A stretch of DNA of 32,000 nt, taken from assembly GCA_025839675.1 (NCBI GenBank), contig CP104013.1, positions 540,001 through 572,000 of the forward strand, in the 5' to 3' direction. Position 1 is the stretch's first letter. Each line of letters starts with the position of its first letter. The position numbers and the translations under genes are program-made. The stretch comes from Candidatus Lokiarchaeum ossiferum. Its GTDB lineage: Archaea; Asgardarchaeota; Lokiarchaeia; Sigyniarchaeales; Promethearchaeaceae. Of this stretch, positions 1 through 31,249 are shown one piece after another. Below the pieces are notes generated by a model. The model made no database searches, had not been told where the DNA came from, and saw nothing but the letters and a program-made list of their open reading frames with translations.

Positions 1-617
1 CATCCACTAATATCCCCATTATTGTACGAGCAAAAAACCGTTCAAAATCTGGTGATTGGTTAGCAAATAAAGTGGATACTGAGGAAATATCAAAAAACGC
101 ATTAATCAATAATGAAACATGGCGTGATTTTATAAGATATTCAAGGAGTAAAGGAAATCAAGACAAGAATATACCCCTAGTTGGATATATCAAAAATTAT
201 GTGCCAATTCCTTATGTGAAATTAAAATCATCTAATTCATCAGTTCGGGTTTTAAAGTTGAAGTTTATTTCTCAATTCGTTGAGCAAACCGAAATGGAAG
301 AGTATGAATCTTTCATATACTTAATTTTCAAGGGAACTGATCAGAAAGGGACAAATTTACTATATGCTCATGCAAGTGCCTTGCTTTCTTTCACAAAAAA
401 AGGGGATGCTCTCACAAATTCTGAAGAAAACAATATCTTTGATCTTCTTATTTTAAGTGCGGCACTCGGTGATGAAAAAAGAAGTATTGGTCTTTCTGGA
501 TTAGAAAGATTATTTGTTTATCCTTATACGGATGTAAGCTTCCGGATATATGGTCCTGCAATATTCTTATATGGATTAGAGGCGATAACTTATGCAAAAA
601 GAAATGAATACGAATAA
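1..617 (+). CDS. hypothetical protein, 5-prime partial (runs off left window edge); first visible gene of a three-gene co-directional cluster
   Basis: Frame 3 is open from nt 3 (..STNIPIIVRAKNRSKSGDWLANK..) through the GTG listed at 72 to TAA at 615-617. The ORF-track start at 72 is therefore probably not the true start. The 3-prime end overlaps the next ORF (ATG 592) by 26 nt. No motif recognised. Confidence 0.6.
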   Translation, partial: STNIPIIVRAKNRSKSGDWLANKVDTEEISKNALINNETWRDFIRYSRSKGNQDKNIPLVGYIKNYVPIPYVKLKSSNSSVRVLKLKFISQFVEQTEMEEYESFIYLIFKGTDQKGTNLLYAHASALLSFTKKGDALTNSEENNIFDLLILSAALGDEKRSIGLSGLERLFVYPYTDVSFRIYGPAIFLYGLEAITYAKRNEYE

Positions 618-3600
618 AAATCCTATTCCAATTCCATTGTTATTTGGAGAAGCATACGAATTAGGTAATTATATGGGAATGCTTTCAGTTGTAGAAAGTA
701 TTAAGAATAAAAAGATGCTCTCGTTAAAAGCAAATGGAGATGTCTTTAATCCCATTGAAATTGACGTAGAATGCATTCAAGATTTTAGTATCCAATTTGA
801 GAGAATGTATGGAATAAATTTTATTGAACTAAAAGAGATCTTTGCTCGACTAAGACCTTTAGGAGAAACAATTTCAATTGAAGATCAACTTTTTCGATTT
901 AACTCGGATTTACATGAATTTGGAAAGACAATTGTTCACAGATCAGTTAAAAGTCGTAGTAATTTCGTCAAAGTATCCCAATCTGAAATAGAGATATTGA
1001 TTAAAGAATTAACAAATGAAATTAATGGAGTAAATTTTGTATTAGAAATTATTTCCGGTTTTTTTGATGGTCAATCGTTTGTTGAATGGTGTGAATTGCA
1101 ATTTCATGATGATTTTAACATTTTAATTGAAATGAATCTTTATGATGAGCAAAATCCAGAGAATCACGCAAAAAAACCAGATCTAATGGTAGTTCAAAAC
1201 AAAAAAGTGGTTTTAATCGGCGATATTAAATCATATTTTCCATTCATTAGACAAAATCGAACAAATCGGTTAAAAGATGCCTTAAATCAAATTCCGGTCG
1301 AAGGATTAAATAGTGAAATGTTAAAAGATTCATCATTTGTTCCTGAAGCCCTGTATTTGAATGATTTTGTAAAACGATATAATCTTTTGACCCGGTATTT
1401 TAAAATGATGATGTATGTTGAGATCATTTATCAAAATAGTGATGAACTCTTTCAACAGAATCCTTTATTTAGTATTGTTGTGCTTCCTGGAAAATCTGTA
1501 TTATTCCATTTCCAAAATTATTCCGATTTTGAAGAAAAACGCGAAATCCTCTTGAAAACAATTCCGTTTAAGATCAAAGATCCAAATTCTTGTGATTATG
1601 ATATAAAAGAAAAGATACTTAATGAGCATCAAGTTGATTTGGAATATGATTTATTAACAGGAGATAGATATATCGAACCAAATAATGAGAAAGGACAGTA
1701 TCTAATACGAGAAAGATACTATGATAGACCAGAAGACCTAACGATTCCCTTAGGTAAAATCCCCGTTTTTTCAGCAGCGGAAGAAATAAAAACAGCAATA
1801 GAACCTCCTATTGCTAAAGGATGGAAAGGTACACCTGTGTTAAATATTCAAACACTACATTTGAAGAAAATAATTAAAAAGTTAACACAGGAAAACTCAA
1901 AGTTCCACTGTATTATTGATGGATCAGACCAAGGAACAGGTAAAAATTTCTCGTTTGCTAAATATATCAAGTATCTTGATAATGAGGATATAGAACAATC
2001 TATTTTAATGGTCTGTCCTAGAAAAGACACGCTAAATGAAACGATTATTTCAATTTGCAATAATCTAGGTATTGAAGCACCTCACTTAGATGATTATGGA
2101 AATATTCAAGATTCAGAATTTAACCAAGGTAAGGTAAAAATTCGATTAATTCGTAGTGAATTTGGCCAACAAATCGTTTTCAACCAGAGAGGATGGATAA
2201 ACCAGAAATTTACTTACGGAGGGGAAGGCGCTACAAGTAAATTAAATAATTTGATAAAAACACCTAAATCTGGAATTGAAATCACATTTCTAACCGCTCA
2301 AACTTTACCCTTCTATTTTCGGTCCCATAAGCAACAGAAACTCCCCCTCCAACATTATAAAAAATTTTATCAAAGATTTGATTTAATCGTCTTTGATGAA
2401 CTTACCAATTCTCCTCCTTTAGTCAGAGAAGTGTTAATTGATTTAATTAATGGATATAAGCAAATCCAAACAAGAATTCCTAATATCATTCCAAAGATGC
2501 TAGTCTTGGATGCATCTATTACAAGTCCAGATTTATTTATTCAACAATTCAAACCTTTAATTTCTGCCGATTCAAAATTTTCAACGTTTTCGGAATATAT
2601 TCAAAGCTATGAAGAAAATCCAATTGAAGATGTTTTTGAAGAAGTTTTCATCAAACTTGATTATTTCAGGTATCAATTGAATCAATCTTTAATATATGGT
2701 TATTCTTCAATTGGGTGGCAAGATGACTATGTATCTATGCCGTTTGAAGAGATAAAAAACCAAATTCAAGAACAAATAACAATAATTCAAAAAAAATATT
2801 GGCCAAATTTCCCTGATTTCGATACATTACTACAACATGGGGAAGTGATGTTCTTTATTGATAACAAGTCTCTAATTGAAGAATTTAATGATTGGATTAT
2901 TGAATTGGGATATGATTGTGGAATTTCAATAGCTGAACAAAAAGAGAGAGCATTTTATGATTCAAAGAATATAATTGGGACAAATTCACTTGCTTTTGGG
3001 ACCAATTTCCCTTCCAAAAAATTAATGATCATAATACCTCCCTATCAAGGGACAGACTATTTCAAGTATCGACAAAATATCGAATTACTCCGACAGGTAA
3101 CCAAACGAATGCGAGGTTCTGATGAGAATGTTGACCGAATGGTAAGCTTTTTAGTTTTTCCTACTAAAGAGAACAATATAGATTTATCTCAGTCAGTATC
3201 GATTAATTTCTATAGAATAAGAAACAGCATCCGGGAATTCCTTTATCAGAAGAAATACCATCAGCTTCCATCATTTTCCTCATATCTGAATAATATTCCA
3301 AGCATAAATCCGAATTACGATACAAAATTAAGGAATTCTTCTATTTATACTCCCAAGGTTCCTTCATTTGGAATGAAGGATAAGAATCAAATAAGTTTAG
3401 AATTCTTTTTAGGAACCATTTTCCCTAAATTACGTGTTATTTTTTTAAAGTGGGGATTTCGCTGTCGAACGTCTTTTAAAATTGGCTTTAATAATGATAA
3501 ATATATTGGGCTACCTTTATCTAATTTCATCTGCTATACATTAGATAACCAGGATTTCTCACGTACTTTTCAAATCGAAGTCTATGCATCTAAAGCTCTT

Positions 3601-4212
3601 TCTGATTTGTCTAAATTGAAAAAATATTTGGCAAAAAATACTGCGGAAGTCAGAAATGATTTAGCGTTTGTATATAGAATGATGCAATGGCATAATCAAC
3701 ATGAAAAACAACCAAGTAAGGCTGCTTATAACATAATTGATAGAGAGATTAAAAATATTGAACAATCTGAAACAGATGGCAAAAAATGTCTAATATTATT
3801 TGCGCATTTCATCCAAAACCTATTCAATGTGAATTCGTTGCCGCTGTCTGGAACTGCATATTTACTCACATTGAACATTGCCGAAAAAACAAGTAATACT
3901 TTTGGTAATAATCTAAATATTTATCAGCAGATAAGCTATCAGAACAAGGAATATGTAAGTCAATTGTTTAAAATGACATCTCCTTTGAAATCATTATATT
4001 TTGGTGCAGGGAATTACTTTGAGCAACCTGTCTTAGTTAACATTGAGAAGAAAGGATTAACGACCGTTGGATACTTATGTCATTATCCAAATTTTGCTCA
4101 TTTTGATTTTTCCCAACCAAATTATCAATTATTGAAGTATTGCCTATTAAAAGAATTATACCGGGAGAACTATGTATATCTTCCAAATTTATTAAAAGGA
4201 TCTACTTTATAG
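592..4212 (+). CDS. PD-(D/E)xK nuclease-like N-terminal domain fused to a P-loop / SF2-helicase-like ATPase (1206 aa), family not recognised
   Basis: Uninterrupted 1206-aa ORF with AGAGG about 10 nt upstream of ATG 592. Nuclease-type signature 'KKPDLMVVQNKKVVLIGDIKSY' (P-D at nt 1177-1182, D-I-K at 1222-1230). P-loop 'DGSDQGTGKNFS' (nt 1933-1947). Walker B/motif II-like 'DLIVFDELTNS' (D-E at 2395-2400). Motif III-like 'MLVLDASIT'. A possible motif VI-like 'TKRMRGSDEN' lies further downstream. Confidence 0.75.
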   Translation: MQKEMNTNKNPIPIPLLFGEAYELGNYMGMLSVVESIKNKKMLSLKANGDVFNPIEIDVECIQDFSIQFERMYGINFIELKEIFARLRPLGETISIEDQLFRFNSDLHEFGKTIVHRSVKSRSNFVKVSQSEIEILIKELTNEINGVNFVLEIISGFFDGQSFVEWCELQFHDDFNILIEMNLYDEQNPENHAKKPDLMVVQNKKVVLIGDIKSYFPFIRQNRTNRLKDALNQIPVEGLNSEMLKDSSFVPEALYLNDFVKRYNLLTRYFKMMMYVEIIYQNSDELFQQNPLFSIVVLPGKSVLFHFQNYSDFEEKREILLKTIPFKIKDPNSCDYDIKEKILNEHQVDLEYDLLTGDRYIEPNNEKGQYLIRERYYDRPEDLTIPLGKIPVFSAAEEIKTAIEPPIAKGWKGTPVLNIQTLHLKKIIKKLTQENSKFHCIIDGSDQGTGKNFSFAKYIKYLDNEDIEQSILMVCPRKDTLNETIISICNNLGIEAPHLDDYGNIQDSEFNQGKVKIRLIRSEFGQQIVFNQRGWINQKFTYGGEGATSKLNNLIKTPKSGIEITFLTAQTLPFYFRSHKQQKLPLQHYKKFYQRFDLIVFDELTNSPPLVREVLIDLINGYKQIQTRIPNIIPKMLVLDASITSPDLFIQQFKPLISADSKFSTFSEYIQSYEENPIEDVFEEVFIKLDYFRYQLNQSLIYGYSSIGWQDDYVSMPFEEIKNQIQEQITIIQKKYWPNFPDFDTLLQHGEVMFFIDNKSLIEEFNDWIIELGYDCGISIAEQKERAFYDSKNIIGTNSLAFGTNFPSKKLMIIIPPYQGTDYFKYRQNIELLRQVTKRMRGSDENVDRMVSFLVFPTKENNIDLSQSVSINFYRIRNSIREFLYQKKYHQLPSFSSYLNNIPSINPNYDTKLRNSSIYTPKVPSFGMKDKNQISLEFFLGTIFPKLRVIFLKWGFRCRTSFKIGFNNDKYIGLPLSNFICYTLDNQDFSRTFQIEVYASKALSDLSKLKKYLAKNTAEVRNDLAFVYRMMQWHNQHEKQPSKAAYNIIDREIKNIEQSETDGKKCLILFAHFIQNLFNVNSLPLSGTAYLLTLNIAEKTSNTFGNNLNIYQQISYQNKEYVSQLFKMTSPLKSLYFGAGNYFEQPVLVNIEKKGLTTVGYLCHYPNFAHFDFSQPNYQLLKYCLLKELYRENYVYLPNLLKGSTL

Positions 4213-4231: not shown

Positions 4232-6163
4232 ATGAAAAATGACAAAAAAAAACAAAAATTGGAAAATAATGAAATCATAATCAGATCATGTGAATTAGAA
4301 ATCAATAATTTAGATGAATTCGAACAAATTGCTAATTTTTTTCAATCTTCAAGTTATGTTTTCCGAGGTTTATCAAATCATAAATATGAAATTACTTCAA
4401 AGTATGATCGTGCACGATTTAATACTGCAAAGTTAGATGCAACAAGAGCAACACCATATATTCTACAACATATTAAAAAATTGGTTCTAAACTTTAAAAA
4501 TATATTAGATGACGCAACGAATTCTTATTTAATTAATGATAAAATCAAGAAATTTTTAAAAGCATTAAATTCTTCTACAACAGATATATCTGATTCAGAG
4601 AAAAATCTTGCTTTACTTTGTTTACTTCAACATTACGGTTGTTCTACTCCTTTAGTTGATTTCACACGAAATATCAATATCGCCTTATATTTTGCTTGTT
4701 CTGATAAAATAAATGAAAATGGATGTATTTGGGTAGTAATGCCGTCTCGGCTTCTTTGGTCTTCAGGTCATCAAATGGTCACAGATACATGGGAAGAAAG
4801 TAATTCTCGTTTTTTTTCATTTAAAGATATTGCAAATTTAATATTCTTAGAGAATTCAAATTACCTTCATCGTCAAATTGCTTTAATAGATTTTAATCAA
4901 TTTTGCATTAACTATAATTTACCATCTTTTCCGAGAATTGAAAATCAAGAAGGAGTTTTTGGATTTGGACGAGCTGATGATAAATCTTTTTGGGAACAAT
5001 TTCAATCACATTCAATTTTTACTGCATTTGATACTGATAATAAAGAGGAAATTATGCAAATCCTTAATTCTCAACAAGAAAATCCGATTTTAATTGCGAA
5101 ACTAATCTTAACTACAGAATTTAAGAGAAATTGGTGGGAAACAAATAAAGAAAAATATAAAAAATATTGTAGTGTATTCTTATTCCCTGATCAACAAGGA
5201 ATTTTTATTGAAACAGATCTTCAAACGAAATTTTCATTTAGTTATATGGATCGAATCATTTCTGATAAAAGAAAGTATAAAAGATTACTTCAATCTATTT
5301 ATGGGAAAGATTTTACAGATAGAATTTTGAATTATAATATTAGGATAAAATCTGAAAATATCATATCAACTCTAAATAAATATTATAGAAATGATCAGAA
5401 AAGATGTATGAAATGTAAAGAATATTATAATCGATTAAATATAATTGAAAAACGGGATTTTTCACAACGCAATATGGATTTTCCAGCATGGTTAGGAAAT
5501 CTTGATTATACTTTGGAAAAAGGAAAACCTTATCGAAAGAACATTATGATTATTGGAGAAAGTGTTACATCAAAATTCAAAAATAAAAAAATGAAATCAG
5601 GTAATAATTTATCTAATAAGCGAATAAATAATATATGTTTTGAATTAGGAACCATTACTAAAGATTTCTCAGAATCGAATGATCCCGAAGACTTGATCTC
5701 TATTTCCGTCTTCTGGGCGAAAATCCAAGAAATGTTTCAAATCCATTCTCCTGAATTTCTAAATAATTTTTATCTCACAGATGTGGGGAAATGTGATTGT
5801 AATAAGAATCATTATATGTTATTTACATGCGGTATGAATTATCTGCTAAAAGAAATTAAATTTATCCATCCAAAGATTATTTTAATTATGGGAAGAAGAG
5901 CACAAAGGCTTTTTCTTTCCCTATTAAGTTTTGATTCACAGGTAAAATCAATCAAATATGATAATAAAAATTTACCCGCTCTATCTTATTTTAAACCAAA
6001 TATGAAAAAACCTGTGAAAGGTGAATTTAGCTATTTGAAAAATCTTGAAAATCCAATTCATTTTCTTTGCGTCCCACATACTTCATCTGCGAATAACAAA
6101 TTTAAAGATTGGAATCAAATTGGCGATTTCATCAGACAACAATATAGTTTTAATTTTCATTAA
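4232..6163 (+). CDS. FRG-domain protein with C-terminal uracil-DNA-glycosylase-superfamily (family 4/5-like) domain
   Basis: The ORF is open from TTG 4217. ATG 4232 sits 9 nt after GGAG (4219-4222) and is preferred as the start. FRG hallmarks: 'YVFRGLSNHKYE', 'LLQHYGCSTPLVDFTRNINIALYFAC', 'PRIENQEGVFGF'. C-terminal UDG-like pattern: CxxC 'RCMKCKEY', motif-A-like 'IMIIGESVT' (G-E-S at nt 5555-5563), 'LTDVGKCDC', 'LKEIKFIHPKIILIMGRRA', and motif-B-like 'LCVPHTSSANN' (nt 6073-6087). Confidence 0.8.
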   Translation: MKNDKKKQKLENNEIIIRSCELEINNLDEFEQIANFFQSSSYVFRGLSNHKYEITSKYDRARFNTAKLDATRATPYILQHIKKLVLNFKNILDDATNSYLINDKIKKFLKALNSSTTDISDSEKNLALLCLLQHYGCSTPLVDFTRNINIALYFACSDKINENGCIWVVMPSRLLWSSGHQMVTDTWEESNSRFFSFKDIANLIFLENSNYLHRQIALIDFNQFCINYNLPSFPRIENQEGVFGFGRADDKSFWEQFQSHSIFTAFDTDNKEEIMQILNSQQENPILIAKLILTTEFKRNWWETNKEKYKKYCSVFLFPDQQGIFIETDLQTKFSFSYMDRIISDKRKYKRLLQSIYGKDFTDRILNYNIRIKSENIISTLNKYYRNDQKRCMKCKEYYNRLNIIEKRDFSQRNMDFPAWLGNLDYTLEKGKPYRKNIMIIGESVTSKFKNKKMKSGNNLSNKRINNICFELGTITKDFSESNDPEDLISISVFWAKIQEMFQIHSPEFLNNFYLTDVGKCDCNKNHYMLFTCGMNYLLKEIKFIHPKIILIMGRRAQRLFLSLLSFDSQVKSIKYDNKNLPALSYFKPNMKKPVKGEFSYLKNLENPIHFLCVPHTSSANNKFKDWNQIGDFIRQQYSFNFH

Positions 6164-30343: not shown

Positions 30344-31249
30344 ATGAAGGAAGGAGATATTGTTTTATTACGTTTAGGCACCGATCAAATTCATGCGGTA
30401 GGAATTGTTGTAGGAGATTATCGTTATAATGAGTTGTTCGCTGATGTAGATGGATGGGATATTCAACATGTTCGTCGAGTAAAATGGATCTGGCCAAATT
30501 CAATATATGGTGAGAAAGTTAAAAAGTTTCCAACTTATTCTGCAAAAAGTGGAGATACAACTCAGTTGCTTGGAGAAAATAGCAAAAGAAAACCCATTTT
30601 AGATTGGTTTAATGAATTGGAAATTAGTTTTGATGAAATAAATTTAAGTTTACCCCCTCTTCCAGAAATAGAAATCGATAATCGAAATATAACTTTAGAT
30701 TTAATTGGAGAATTTCTTTTCGATAAAGGGGTATCTTATCAATCAATTGAAAATCTAAAACAAGTTATTGATGATCTTCAAATGATTGCTAAATGGTATG
30801 ATGGAGATGCGAAACTAAAACCATCGGAATATGAAACAGAATGCTATCTAATCATACCTTTACTAAGAGCATTAGGTTGGACTCCCCAAAAAATGAAATT
30901 AGAATATAGTCCTCCCAAACATCGAAAACGAATTGATATTGCTTTATTTACATATTTACCAAGAAATGAAGAAAACATTACTACAATTGTCGAAGCTAAA
31001 AAAAAAGGGAGATCTATATTCAGAGCATTTAATCAAGCAAAAAATTATGCAGATACGAATGTTAATATAAAAAAAATCATCGTTTCGGATGGAATACGAT
31101 ATGCTGTTTATTTCAAGAAAGAGAATAAATGGAAATTACATGCTTATTTAAATCTAATTCGATTTCAGATTGATTATCCTATTTATAATTGTTCAGGTAC
31201 ATTAGAAGCGTTATGGACTATGACACCAGAATGGAAAGAAGGTTTTTAA
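30344..31249 (+). CDS. HsdR-N-type PD-(D/E)xK nuclease-domain protein; annotated from the first ATG after an in-frame TGA, likely a disrupted longer gene starting at ATG 30134
   Basis: C-terminal 'ECYLIIPLLRALGWTP....RIDIALFTY....TTIVEAKKKGRSI..FNQAKNYA....KKIIVSDGIRYAVYF' is the classic type I R-subunit N-terminal nuclease pattern (D...ExK...Q..Y....TNG..w.ly). The same frame is open upstream from 30173. With ATG 30134 it reads 'MTDERIIWQESA[TGA]DKDRNYINICLKYNVILNGPGRFG...'. ATG 30344 has no SD. Confidence 0.65.
   Translation: MKEGDIVLLRLGTDQIHAVGIVVGDYRYNELFADVDGWDIQHVRRVKWIWPNSIYGEKVKKFPTYSAKSGDTTQLLGENSKRKPILDWFNELEISFDEINLSLPPLPEIEIDNRNITLDLIGEFLFDKGVSYQSIENLKQVIDDLQMIAKWYDGDAKLKPSEYETECYLIIPLLRALGWTPQKMKLEYSPPKHRKRIDIALFTYLPRNEENITTIVEAKKKGRSIFRAFNQAKNYADTNVNIKKIIVSDGIRYAVYFKKENKWKLHAYLNLIRFQIDYPIYNCSGTLEALWTMTPEWKEGF

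What the first reader, a model, noticed from the sequence alone, without database searches (positions are those of the whole stretch)
4232..6163. FRG domain fused to a family-4-like UDG fold with altered active-site motifs
The C-terminal ~230 aa follow the order of family 4/5 UDG landmarks. These are an N-terminal CxxC ('CMKCKEY'), motif A in the form 'GESVT' instead of GEAPG, 'LTDVGKC', further Cys residues compatible with an Fe-S cluster, and motif B as 'PHTSS' instead of HPS(P/A). The altered motifs suggest a substrate other than uracil. DNA-glycosylase-based anti-phage defence acting on modified bases has been reported (e.g. Brig1). I do not know of a described FRG-UDG fusion.
Basis: partly seen in the sequence, partly recalled or inferred. 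Interest (0 to 1): 0.6.

Follow-up and report, generated by a model that had tools for sequence, protein, structure and literature searches.

The report
Archaeal FRG–glycosylase fusion protein
A cultured Asgard archaeon (Lokiarchaeum) carries, inside a cluster of anti-virus genes, a so far unique protein that joins a complete FRG (ADP-ribosyltransferase-like) protein to a complete iron-sulfur DNA-glycosylase-like protein whose base-reading residue differs from that of uracil glycosylases, so it is probably an untested one-protein defence against foreign DNA with unusual bases.

Summary
ORF 4232-6163 (+) encodes 643 aa. Pfam reports FRG (59 bits) and UDG (30.5 bits), both above cut-off. A confident model of residues 331-643 matches family 4 uracil-DNA glycosylases (4zbx: Z 13.3, rmsd 3.0 Å, 174 of 192 residues).

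The C-terminal module belongs to a rare family: 37 clusters among 1.84 billion representatives, almost all stand-alone. In the 29 aligned members, the four Fe-S cysteines are kept in 28 of 29. The motif-A Gly, the motif-B His and an Asp in place of the uracil-reading Asn are invariant. That points to an active enzyme with a non-uracil, possibly cytosine-type, substrate.

The N-terminal module is a complete FRG protein with all family invariants and a weak but coherent ADP-ribosyltransferase-like fold.

I found no second FRG-UDG fusion in the representative library, in 400 genomes of the phylum, or among long FRG proteins.

The gene lies in a defence island and is unusually AT-rich. It is not a conserved part of the upstream Argonaute-like/helicase pair.

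Function is untested. The best reading is a defence glycosylase coupled to an NAD-using module.

The parts
4232..6163 (+). Whole gene, 643 aa: FRG module fused to a UDG-like module
   Evidence: Open frame with ATG at 4232 and an SD-like GGAG upstream. Pfam FRG and UDG are both above cut-off. GC is 26.7% against 33.6% for the genome, the 1.1 percentile of equal-size windows.
4232..5245 (+). N-terminal module (about residues 1-338): a complete FRG protein, ART-superfamily-like
   Evidence: PF08867 scores 59.4 bits on residues 41-162. PADLOC PDC-S15 models hit at E 1e-18 over residues 17-251. It aligns end to end with stand-alone FRG proteins of about 300 aa. Model: pLDDT 66, pTM 0.72. About 40 of the top 50 chains in a 48,161-chain search are ADP-ribosyltransferase-fold proteins, best Z 5.2.
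4361..4369 (+). F44-R45-G46, the name-giving FRG motif
   Evidence: R45 and G46 are invariant in 13 aligned FRG proteins.
4628..4666 (+). Q133-H-Y-G-x-x-T139-x-L-x-D143-x-T145, the conserved FRG core motif
   Evidence: Q133, H134, G136, T139 and D143 are invariant in alignment A4.
4946..4960 (+). Q239-E-G-V-F243, the third conserved FRG motif, preceded by R235
   Evidence: Q239 is invariant; R235 and F243 are conserved in at least 90% of sequences.
5246..5248 (+). Met339 codon at the fusion junction; likely the former start codon of the UDG-like gene
   Evidence: Stand-alone relatives begin 10-20 residues before the conserved LLxxIYGK block, which is where M339 lies. Stand-alone FRG proteins end about 20 residues after the LFP motif, here F318-P319. 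This reading is an inference.
5267..6160 (+). C-terminal module (residues 346-643): Fe-S UDG-superfamily fold, nearest to family 4
   Evidence: Model: pLDDT 85, pTM 0.89. Foldseek top hit 4zbx at E 1.8e-5. VIA Z 13.3, rmsd 3.0, 174 of 192 residues aligned. The family profile hits 1ui0 at E 3e-6. 25 of 29 family members hit PF03167.
5405..5416 (+). C392-x-x-C395, first two putative 4Fe-4S ligands
   Evidence: Cys in 28 of 29 family members at each position. They align with the CKKC of S. tokodaii UDG.
5552..5569 (+). Motif A: I441-G442-E443-S444-V445-T446 (family 4 has GEAPG)
   Evidence: G442 is 29/29 and E443 is 17/29. The motif aligns with IMFVGEAPGEN of 4zbx.
5771..5794 (+). Y514-L-T-D517-V-G-K-C521: Asp replaces the uracil-reading Asn; C521 is the third Fe-S ligand
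   Evidence: Y514 and D517 are 29/29; C521 is 28/29. D517 aligns with N82 of 4zbx and with the Asn of ITN in 1ui0.
5828..5830 (+). C533, fourth putative Fe-S ligand
   Evidence: 28 of 29. It aligns with the second Cys of 1ui0 and 4zbx, downstream of KC.
6074..6088 (+). Motif B: P615-H616-T-S-S (family 4 has HPS/HPA)
   Evidence: H616 is kept in 24 of 24 sequences that reach this column. It aligns with the motif-B His of 4zbx.
592..4212 (+). Upstream 1,206-aa nuclease-helicase, 19 nt from the FRG-UDG start; a neighbour and probably co-transcribed, but not a conserved partner
   Evidence: ResIII hit. Its homologues in G045 and G015 keep the 1,051-aa partner but not an FRG-UDG gene. In G015 an AAA_15/AAA_21/DUF3696 ATPase follows. 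In G045 no co-directional ORF follows within 336 nt.

Best explanation
The gene encodes a single-polypeptide immune protein of an Asgard archaeon. It was made by end-to-end fusion of two proteins that each exist on their own.

The C-terminal half is an iron-sulfur DNA glycosylase of a rare clade that is sister-like to family 4 UDG. It would scan DNA, flip a base into its pocket and cut the N-glycosidic bond. Its base-reading Asn is replaced by an invariant Asp. The preferred substrate is therefore probably not uracil but a base with an exocyclic amine, most simply a cytosine derivative such as those used by viruses that modify their DNA. Excision would leave abasic sites that block replication of the invader, as shown for Brig1 and Brig3.

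The N-terminal FRG half is an ADP-ribosyltransferase-superfamily module that most likely uses NAD+. Tethered to the glycosylase, it would either consume NAD+ once foreign DNA is engaged, or ADP-ribosylate the DNA or a protein at the lesion.

Shown here: the domain identities, the fold, the residue conservation, the genomic setting and the uniqueness of the fusion. Inferred: enzymatic activity, substrate, NAD+ use and the defence role.
For: - Domains and fold.
- Active-site-like positions are conserved across 29 family members and all are kept in the fused copy: G442, Y514 and D517 at 29/29, H616 at 24/24, four Cys at 28/29, and an aromatic at 470 at 29/29.
- D517 aligns with N82 of S. tokodaii UDG. 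Brig1 has an acidic residue (E147) at that position, and Brig3 needs D127 (PMC11078745; bioRxiv 10.64898/2026.02.25.707755).
- From established knowledge, the Asn-to-Asp change in human UNG confers cytosine excision.
- The genome has its own family 1 UNG, so uracil repair is covered.
- The FRG half keeps every invariant of stand-alone FRG proteins, hits the PADLOC candidate family PDC-S15 at E 1e-18, and has an ART-like fold signal. This agrees with its published classification as an ART-superfamily predicted NADase/effector (PMC9503650).
- Setting: by my Pfam hits, the flanks hold a ResIII helicase, a NERD plus P-loop protein, SNF2 and DEAD helicases, two Eco57I-type methyltransferases and an ArdC-like gene. 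Earlier notes of this scan, which I did not test, read these as an Argonaute-like/helicase pair, a NERD-STAND sensor and an ARMADA operon.
- The gene's GC lies at the 1st percentile of the genome.
- It was not found in the same-genus genome G138, which is 85% complete.
- Brig1 and Brig3 loci also carry ADP-ribose-type genes.
Against: - No activity has been measured.
- Stand-alone relatives of the UDG-like module sit mostly among housekeeping genes (ThiC, lipoate ligase, MFS transporter, SAM synthetase, MtrA). Only some are near defence-type genes: GmrSD in L004 and Schlafen/AlbA_2 in L020. The family as a whole may therefore be a repair family.
- The ART-fold evidence for FRG is weak in score (best Z 5.2, Foldseek not significant, model pLDDT 66).
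- No FRG protein has a demonstrated biochemical activity in the papers I could search.
- The fusion is a singleton, so there is no comparative evidence that the two halves work together.
- No modified-base virus of this host is known to me. The paper on a Lokiarchaeum virus does not mention DNA modification.
Confidence: 0.45

Rival explanations
1. Sensor-effector reading. The UDG-like half binds or flips a foreign base and serves mainly as the trigger. The FRG half is the only effector, and it depletes NAD+ to abort infection.
For: Immune proteins commonly fuse a sensor to an NADase-type effector. FRG is predicted to be a NADase effector (PMC9503650). Stand-alone FRG proteins are PADLOC single-gene defence candidates.
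Against: All catalytic-type residues of the UDG-like family are kept in the fused copy. A pure binding module would be free to lose them. The module nests among presumably active stand-alone enzymes (99/98 support).
Confidence: 0.2
2. Housekeeping or damage repair. The UDG-like family removes a damaged base in archaeal DNA. The FRG fusion is an accessory or an accident with no immune role.
For: Stand-alone relatives lie next to ThiC, lipoate ligase, MFS transporter, SAM synthetase, MtrA and a Rad51-like gene. One source names a member family 4 uracil-DNA glycosylase.
Against: The family is very rare and patchy: 37 clusters in 1.84 billion representatives, and only a few of 400 genomes in the phylum. 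That does not fit a core repair function. This copy sits in a defence island, is strongly AT-rich (1st percentile), is fused to a defence-candidate domain, and was not found in the same-genus genome.
Confidence: 0.15
3. Third subunit of the upstream module. The protein works with the 1,051-aa Argonaute-like protein and the 1,206-aa nuclease-helicase, for example as their effector.
For: The three genes are co-directional and tightly packed: a 26-nt overlap, then a 19-nt gap.
Against: The pair recurs in G045 and G015 without any FRG or UDG-like gene. In G015 a different ATPase gene follows, and in G045 nothing co-directional follows within 336 nt. The gene's GC (26.7%) differs from that of the pair (30-31%).
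Confidence: 0.1
4. Artefact or decaying gene. Two adjacent genes were fused by a sequencing error or a recent stop-codon loss, with no selected function for the fusion.
For: The fusion is a singleton. An in-frame Met (M339) sits where the stand-alone genes start.
Against: The frame is open over 1,932 nt in a closed 6.03-Mb contig, and the identical protein is on record from 3 contigs and several sources. There is no leftover intergenic spacer. Both halves keep all family invariants and have the same base composition.
Confidence: 0.05

Closest known systems
Family 4 uracil-DNA glycosylases (UDGa; S. tokodaii 4ZBX/4ZBY, T. thermophilus 1UI0, T. maritima 1L9G)
   Same: Same fold: Z 12-13.3, rmsd about 3 Å, almost the whole chain aligned. 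Same order of landmarks. Four Cys sit at the positions of the 4Fe-4S ligands. The motif-A G-E and motif-B His are present.
   Different: The uracil-reading Asn is an invariant Asp. Motif A is GESVT, not GEAPG. Motif B is PHTSS, not HPS/HPA. There are extra family-specific blocks (LLxxIYGK, MDFPxW). NCBIfam UDG_fam4 scores 22 bits against a cut-off of 125. The module is also fused to an FRG protein.
Brig1, Brig2 and Brig3 anti-phage DNA glycosylases (UDG superfamily)
   Same: They share the UDG-superfamily fold with S. tokodaii UDG as the nearest solved structure. They have an acidic residue where repair UDGs have Asn (Brig1 E147) or an essential active-site Asp (Brig3 D127). They lie in defence islands, and their loci carry ADP-ribose-type genes (PMC11078745; 10.1101/2025.10.29.685425; 10.64898/2026.02.25.707755).
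   Different: The Brig proteins are bacterial single-domain proteins. The Brig papers I searched do not mention Fe-S clusters or cysteines. No sequence was available to me, so homology beyond the superfamily level is untested. Here the enzyme is archaeal, Fe-S-type and fused to FRG. No phage phenotype is known.
FRG domain proteins (PF08867; PADLOC candidate PDC-S15)
   Same: The N-terminal 338 aa align over their full length with stand-alone FRG proteins and keep all invariant residues.
   Different: Known FRG proteins are stand-alone (about 300 aa) or attached to unrelated large proteins. None found carries a UDG domain.
DNA-targeting ADP-ribosyltransferases (DarT, pierisin, Scabin)
   Same: They appear among the fold matches of the FRG model (Z 2.5-4.3). 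They show that ART-fold enzymes can act on DNA bases.
   Different: The scores are too low to place FRG with them. The catalytic motifs differ (FRG has R…T…Q-x-G). No DNA ADP-ribosylation by an FRG protein is known.

Membership tests
UDG superfamily (PF03167) | Score above the Pfam gathering threshold | tested here: met
   30.5 bits for the whole protein and 31.5 bits for the module alone, against a cut-off of 24.3. 25 of 29 family members also pass at E <= 0.001.
UDG superfamily (PF03167) | Alpha/beta UDG fold | tested here: met
   Model pLDDT 85, pTM 0.89. Z 13.3, rmsd 3.0 Å, 174 of 192 residues aligned to 4zbx. All 16 Foldseek hits with E <= 0.001 are UDG-superfamily proteins.
Family 4 UDG (UDGa) | Four Cys ligands of a 4Fe-4S cluster (CxxC, K-C, and a C about 12-16 residues later) | tested here: met
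   C392, C395, C521 and C533 align with the Cys of 4zbx and 1ui0 and are kept in 28 of 29 relatives. Cluster binding itself was not tested.
Family 4 UDG (UDGa) | Motif A GE(A/G)PG | tested here: not met
   The motif is GESVT. G is 29/29 and E is 17/29 in the family, and Pro is absent in the query.
Family 4 UDG (UDGa) | Asn that reads uracil (I-T-N-x-V-K-C) | tested here: not met
   Asp517 occupies this position, and it is Asp in 29 of 29 relatives.
Family 4 UDG (UDGa) | NCBIfam TIGR00758 / NF040953 above cut-off | tested here: not met
   22.1 bits against 125.3, and 19.6 bits against 250.
FRG domain (PF08867) | Score above the Pfam gathering threshold, with conserved FRG, QHxG..T..D and QxGxF motifs | tested here: met
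   59.4 bits against 25. R45, G46, R60, Q133, H134, G136, T139, D143, Q239 and P319 are invariant in A4 and present in the query.
PADLOC candidate PDC-S15 | Match to the PDC-S15 HMMs | tested here: met
   12 PDC-S15 models match, the best at E 1.1e-18 over residues 19-251. PDC-S15 is itself an untested candidate; I found no functional study of it.
ADP-ribosyltransferase (ART) superfamily, for the FRG half | ART fold with an NAD-binding split beta-sheet | tested here: inconclusive
   Best Z is 5.2 (TreX) and Foldseek is not significant. Even so, about 40 of the top 50 of 48,161 chains are ART-fold proteins. A published classification agrees (PMC9503650).
Brig1/Brig2/Brig3 defence glycosylases | Sequence homology to a Brig protein, and excision of a modified phage base | not testable with these tools
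   No Brig sequence or structure was reachable. None appears among the PDB matches, and the PADLOC library predates them. Activity needs experiments.
Argonaute-like plus nuclease-helicase module (upstream pair) | Conserved co-occurrence with the pair | tested here: not met
   The pair is present in G045 and G015 without FRG or UDG-like genes downstream.

The most novel reading that the evidence does not exclude
The two halves act on the same nucleotide. The glycosylase-fold module flips out or excises a base in foreign DNA, and the tethered ART-fold module uses NAD+ to ADP-ribosylate the exposed base, the abasic sugar or a nearby DNA end, making a lesion that cannot be repaired. That would be a new kind of DNA-directed immune chemistry. 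It would also be a prokaryotic example, in the closest archaeal relatives of eukaryotes, of direct coupling between base excision and ADP-ribosylation, which in eukaryotes is divided between glycosylases and PARPs.
Probability: 0.1. Interest if true: 0.85.

Novelty: new variant of a known kind. Interest (0 to 1): 0.55.

Why it matters
DNA glycosylases have only recently been recognised as anti-virus effectors (Brig1-3, Dag1/2), and all the characterised ones I found are bacterial. This protein would extend the principle to Asgard archaea.

It would also define an Fe-S, Asp-type clade of the UDG superfamily with an unknown substrate. And it offers a handle on the FRG domain, a widespread defence-candidate domain for which I found no demonstrated activity. 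Because the two halves are fused, the partner activity and the likely target (DNA) of FRG become testable in a single purified protein.

Tried and rejected
I took genomic context of relatives from the search for related loci and the genome search instead.
- **The search for related loci with the 29-sequence alignment** failed because no stretch was conserved enough. A 7-sequence alignment gave 1 genome locus, 3 metagenome loci and no viral locus, so the context sample is small.
- **Word-indexed homology search of the full protein** found no full-length relative. A search among longer FRG proteins gave three, none with a UDG domain. The non-FRG part of the 666-aa P0046 does not match the UDG-like profile (hhalign probability 0.15).
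- **The 636-aa gene that follows the helicase homologue in G015** looked like a possible counterpart because of its size and position. It is an AAA_15/AAA_21/DUF3696 ATPase unrelated to P0001.
- **The bacterial promoter/terminator scan** gave no more sites than shuffled sequence and does not apply to an archaeon.
- **Foldseek on the FRG model** gave nothing significant.
- **ESM Atlas rows** for the C-terminal module scored 0.78, below the level that means anything. They only repeat 'UDG-like'.
- **Literature searches** for an FRG-glycosylase link, or for functional work on PDC-S15, found nothing relevant.
Full report
**Observation.** The window has an uninterrupted ORF at 4232-6163 (+). It has an ATG start, a GGAG 9 nt upstream and a stop at 6161-6163, and it encodes 643 aa. 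Pfam reports FRG (PF08867, 59.4 bits against a cut-off of 25, residues 41-162) and UDG (PF03167, 30.5 bits against 24.3, residues 498-623). PADLOC's candidate family PDC-S15 (FRG proteins) matches residues 17-251 at E 1e-18. NCBIfam gives only sub-threshold family 4 UDG hits (22 bits against 125).

**The C-terminal module.** An exhaustive HMMER search with residues 331-643 against 1.84 billion representatives found only 37 proteins at E <= 0.001. Nearly all are 250-350 aa long and align from about residue 346 of the query to its end. One (P0010, 592 aa) has a C-terminal extension, and none has an N-terminal FRG-sized extension. Of 29 aligned members, 25 hit PF03167 on their own.

With that alignment AlphaFold2 gave a confident model: pLDDT 85.3, pTM 0.89. 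All 16 Foldseek PDB matches with E <= 0.001 are UDG-superfamily proteins, led by family 4 (4zbx at E 1.8e-5). VIA-align gave these scores:

| Target | Z |
|---|---|
| 4zbx (rmsd 3.0 Å, 174 of 192 residues aligned) | 13.3 |
| 1ui0 | 12.8 |
| 1vk2 / 1l9g | about 12 |
| family 5 (2d3y) | 11.7 |
| UdgX | about 11 |
| SMUG1 / TDG | about 9.6 |

The family profile hits 1ui0 at E 3e-6 and 4zbx at E 1.3e-5. The CxxC, motif A (IMxIGE against IMFVGEAPGEN) and motif B (His) are collinear.

**Conserved positions.** In the 29-sequence alignment:
- The four Cys (392, 395, 521, 533) are each kept in 28 of 29. The single exception, P0038, has lost all four together.
- Motif-A G442 is 29/29 and E443 is 17/29.
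- An aromatic residue at 470 is 29/29.
- Y514 and D517 are 29/29.
- Motif-B H616 is 24/24 among sequences that reach it.

D517 aligns with N82 of S. tokodaii UDG and with the Asn of ITN in T. thermophilus UDG. That is the residue that reads the Watson-Crick face of uracil. The Brig1 paper names the same reference residue and places Brig1 E147 there (PMC11078745). Brig3 has an essential D127 (10.64898/2026.02.25.707755). From established knowledge, changing this Asn to Asp in human UNG creates a cytosine glycosylase.

I therefore read the family as active Fe-S glycosylases with a non-uracil, possibly cytosine-type, substrate. This is an inference.

It is not family 4 in the strict sense. Motif A lacks A-P-G, the Asn is missing, and the family 4 HMMs are far below threshold. 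The genome has a canonical family 1 UNG (GQDPYP … HPSPLS). It also has a separate 259-aa Fe-S UDG-like protein that keeps the Asn.

**The N-terminal module.** Residues 1 to about 338 align end to end with stand-alone FRG proteins of about 300 aa. Every invariant residue of that set is present: R45, G46, R60, Q133, H134, G136, T139, D143, Q239 and P319.

The model is of moderate quality (pLDDT 66, pTM 0.72). Foldseek finds nothing significant. In an independent search of 48,161 chains the best Z is only 5.2. However, about 40 of the top 50 rows are ADP-ribosyltransferase-fold proteins: Rhs TreX, PltA, LT, pertussis S1, Scabin, pierisin, DarT, Tpt1, PARPs, diphtheria toxin, Arr and MbcT. That coherence supports the published assignment of Frg to the ART superfamily as a predicted NADase/effector of prokaryotic immunity (PMC9503650).

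I found no experimental study of an FRG protein. The FRG half also matches a phage protein family of unknown function (phrog_4962, E 8e-17).

**The fusion.** The junction is clean. Stand-alone FRG proteins end about 20 residues after the LFP motif (here F318-P319). Stand-alone UDG-like proteins start 10-20 residues before LLxxIYGK. An in-frame Met (M339, ATG at 5246-5248) lies exactly there and looks like the former start codon.

In a maximum-likelihood tree the fused module sits inside a starred clade (99/98) of ten proteins. The other nine are stand-alone (P0010 has a C-terminal extension). The nearest is P0004, at 36% identity, a hypothetical protein of a Promethearchaeota MAG. Both halves have the same base composition (26.8% and 26.6% GC).

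I found no second FRG-UDG fusion in any of these searches:
- the representative search;
- 400 genomes of the phylum, which hold only separate UDG-like genes (G255, G227, G241) and separate FRG genes;
- longer FRG proteins;
- viral contigs.

The identical protein is on record from three contigs and several sources, and the genome is a closed 6.03-Mb contig. An assembly artefact is therefore unlikely.

**Organism and setting.** The genome is archaeal, with three full-length archaeal SSU rRNA genes at about 1,470 bits. Earlier notes of this scan name it as a cultured Lokiarchaeum. I recall the size 6,035,313 bp as that published for Ca. L. ossiferum B35; this is from memory and I did not check it.

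The gene is the last of three tightly packed co-directional genes: a 1,051-aa unknown, a 1,206-aa nuclease-helicase that overlaps it by 26 nt, and the FRG-UDG gene after a 19-nt gap. An earlier follow-up read the first two as an Argonaute-like/helicase pair.

I confirmed that this pair recurs in G045 and G015. In G015 it is followed by an AAA_15/AAA_21/DUF3696 ATPase, and in G045 by no co-directional ORF within 336 nt. The FRG-UDG gene is therefore separate cargo in a variable slot.

By my Pfam hits the flanks hold:
- an ArdC-like gene on the other strand;
- a 1,563-aa NERD plus P-loop protein;
- SNF2 and DEAD helicases with two Eco57I-type methyltransferases;
- an HSDR_N-like gene.

Earlier notes read the NERD protein as a STAND immune sensor and the methyltransferase operon as ARMADA.

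The gene's GC (26.7%) is at the 1.1 percentile of equal-size windows in a 33.6% GC genome. It was not found in the same-genus genome G138, which is 85% complete. A preprint reports that two L. ossiferum strains differ greatly in defence content. Its PADLOC-based list in the main text does not mention this gene.

**Counter-evidence for a defence role of the family.** Stand-alone relatives lie mostly among ordinary genes:
- ThiC, lipoate ligase, MFS transporter, cupin and PHP genes in L028;
- SAM synthetase in L020;
- a Rad51-like gene and MtrA in L021;
- a transporter and an ArsR gene in L019.

Only L004 (a GmrSD gene 3 kb away, in a Bathyarchaeia contig with phage-like remnants) and L020 (Schlafen/AlbA_2) hint at conflict.

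**Conclusion.** The thing is a new domain architecture built from two known kinds of module. The best-supported mechanism is a defence glycosylase for non-canonical bases, coupled to an NAD-using ART-like module. The main rivals are a sensor-plus-NADase reading, a repair role, and membership of the upstream module. Everything about activity is inference and needs the assays listed.

Noticed in passing
L003:1348-2127 (-) = G000:C1 about 648.5-649.3 kb: A second, stand-alone 259-aa Fe-S UDG-like protein in the same genome. It keeps the Asn (Y-T-N-L-V-K-C) and is only distantly related to the fused module (hhalign E 2.7e-5 over 69 columns). Its function is unknown.
   Followed up: partly
L026:7324-10250 (-) (G015): In another genome of the phylum, the Argonaute-like/helicase pair is followed by a 636-aa AAA_15/AAA_21/DUF3696 ATPase and an overlapping 339-aa unknown. 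This suggests a variable accessory slot downstream of the pair.
   Followed up: partly
L029:833-1621 (-) and L029:2511-3320 (+): A metagenome contig carries two UDG-like genes about 900 bp apart on opposite strands. One belongs to the family studied here. The other is a weaker PF03167 match (22 bits).
   Followed up: no
L004:941-1864 (+) and L004:4750-6447 (-): In a Bathyarchaeia MAG contig, a stand-alone member of the UDG-like family lies 3 kb from a GmrSD-type restriction enzyme (an enzyme type that targets modified DNA). Weak phage head-tail connector-like ORFs lie between them.
   Followed up: partly
P0010 (592 aa) and its sister P0026: P0010 carries a C-terminal extension of about 280 aa with no Pfam match after the UDG-like module. 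It is the only other fusion seen in this family.
   Followed up: partly
P0038 in alignment A1: One family member has lost all four Fe-S cysteines together (V, gap, F, M) while keeping G, Y, D and H. This fits coordinated loss of the cluster.
   Followed up: no
window 30344-31249 (+): A 301-aa ORF after the large DEAD-helicase gene has HSDR_N / HSDR_N_2 (type I restriction R-subunit N-terminal, PD-(D/E)xK-like) matches. It may be a stand-alone nuclease at the end of the methyltransferase-helicase operon.
   Followed up: no
window 4232-5248 (+): The FRG half matches phage protein family phrog_4962 (unknown function) at E 7.8e-17, so FRG-like proteins are also encoded by viruses.
   Followed up: no
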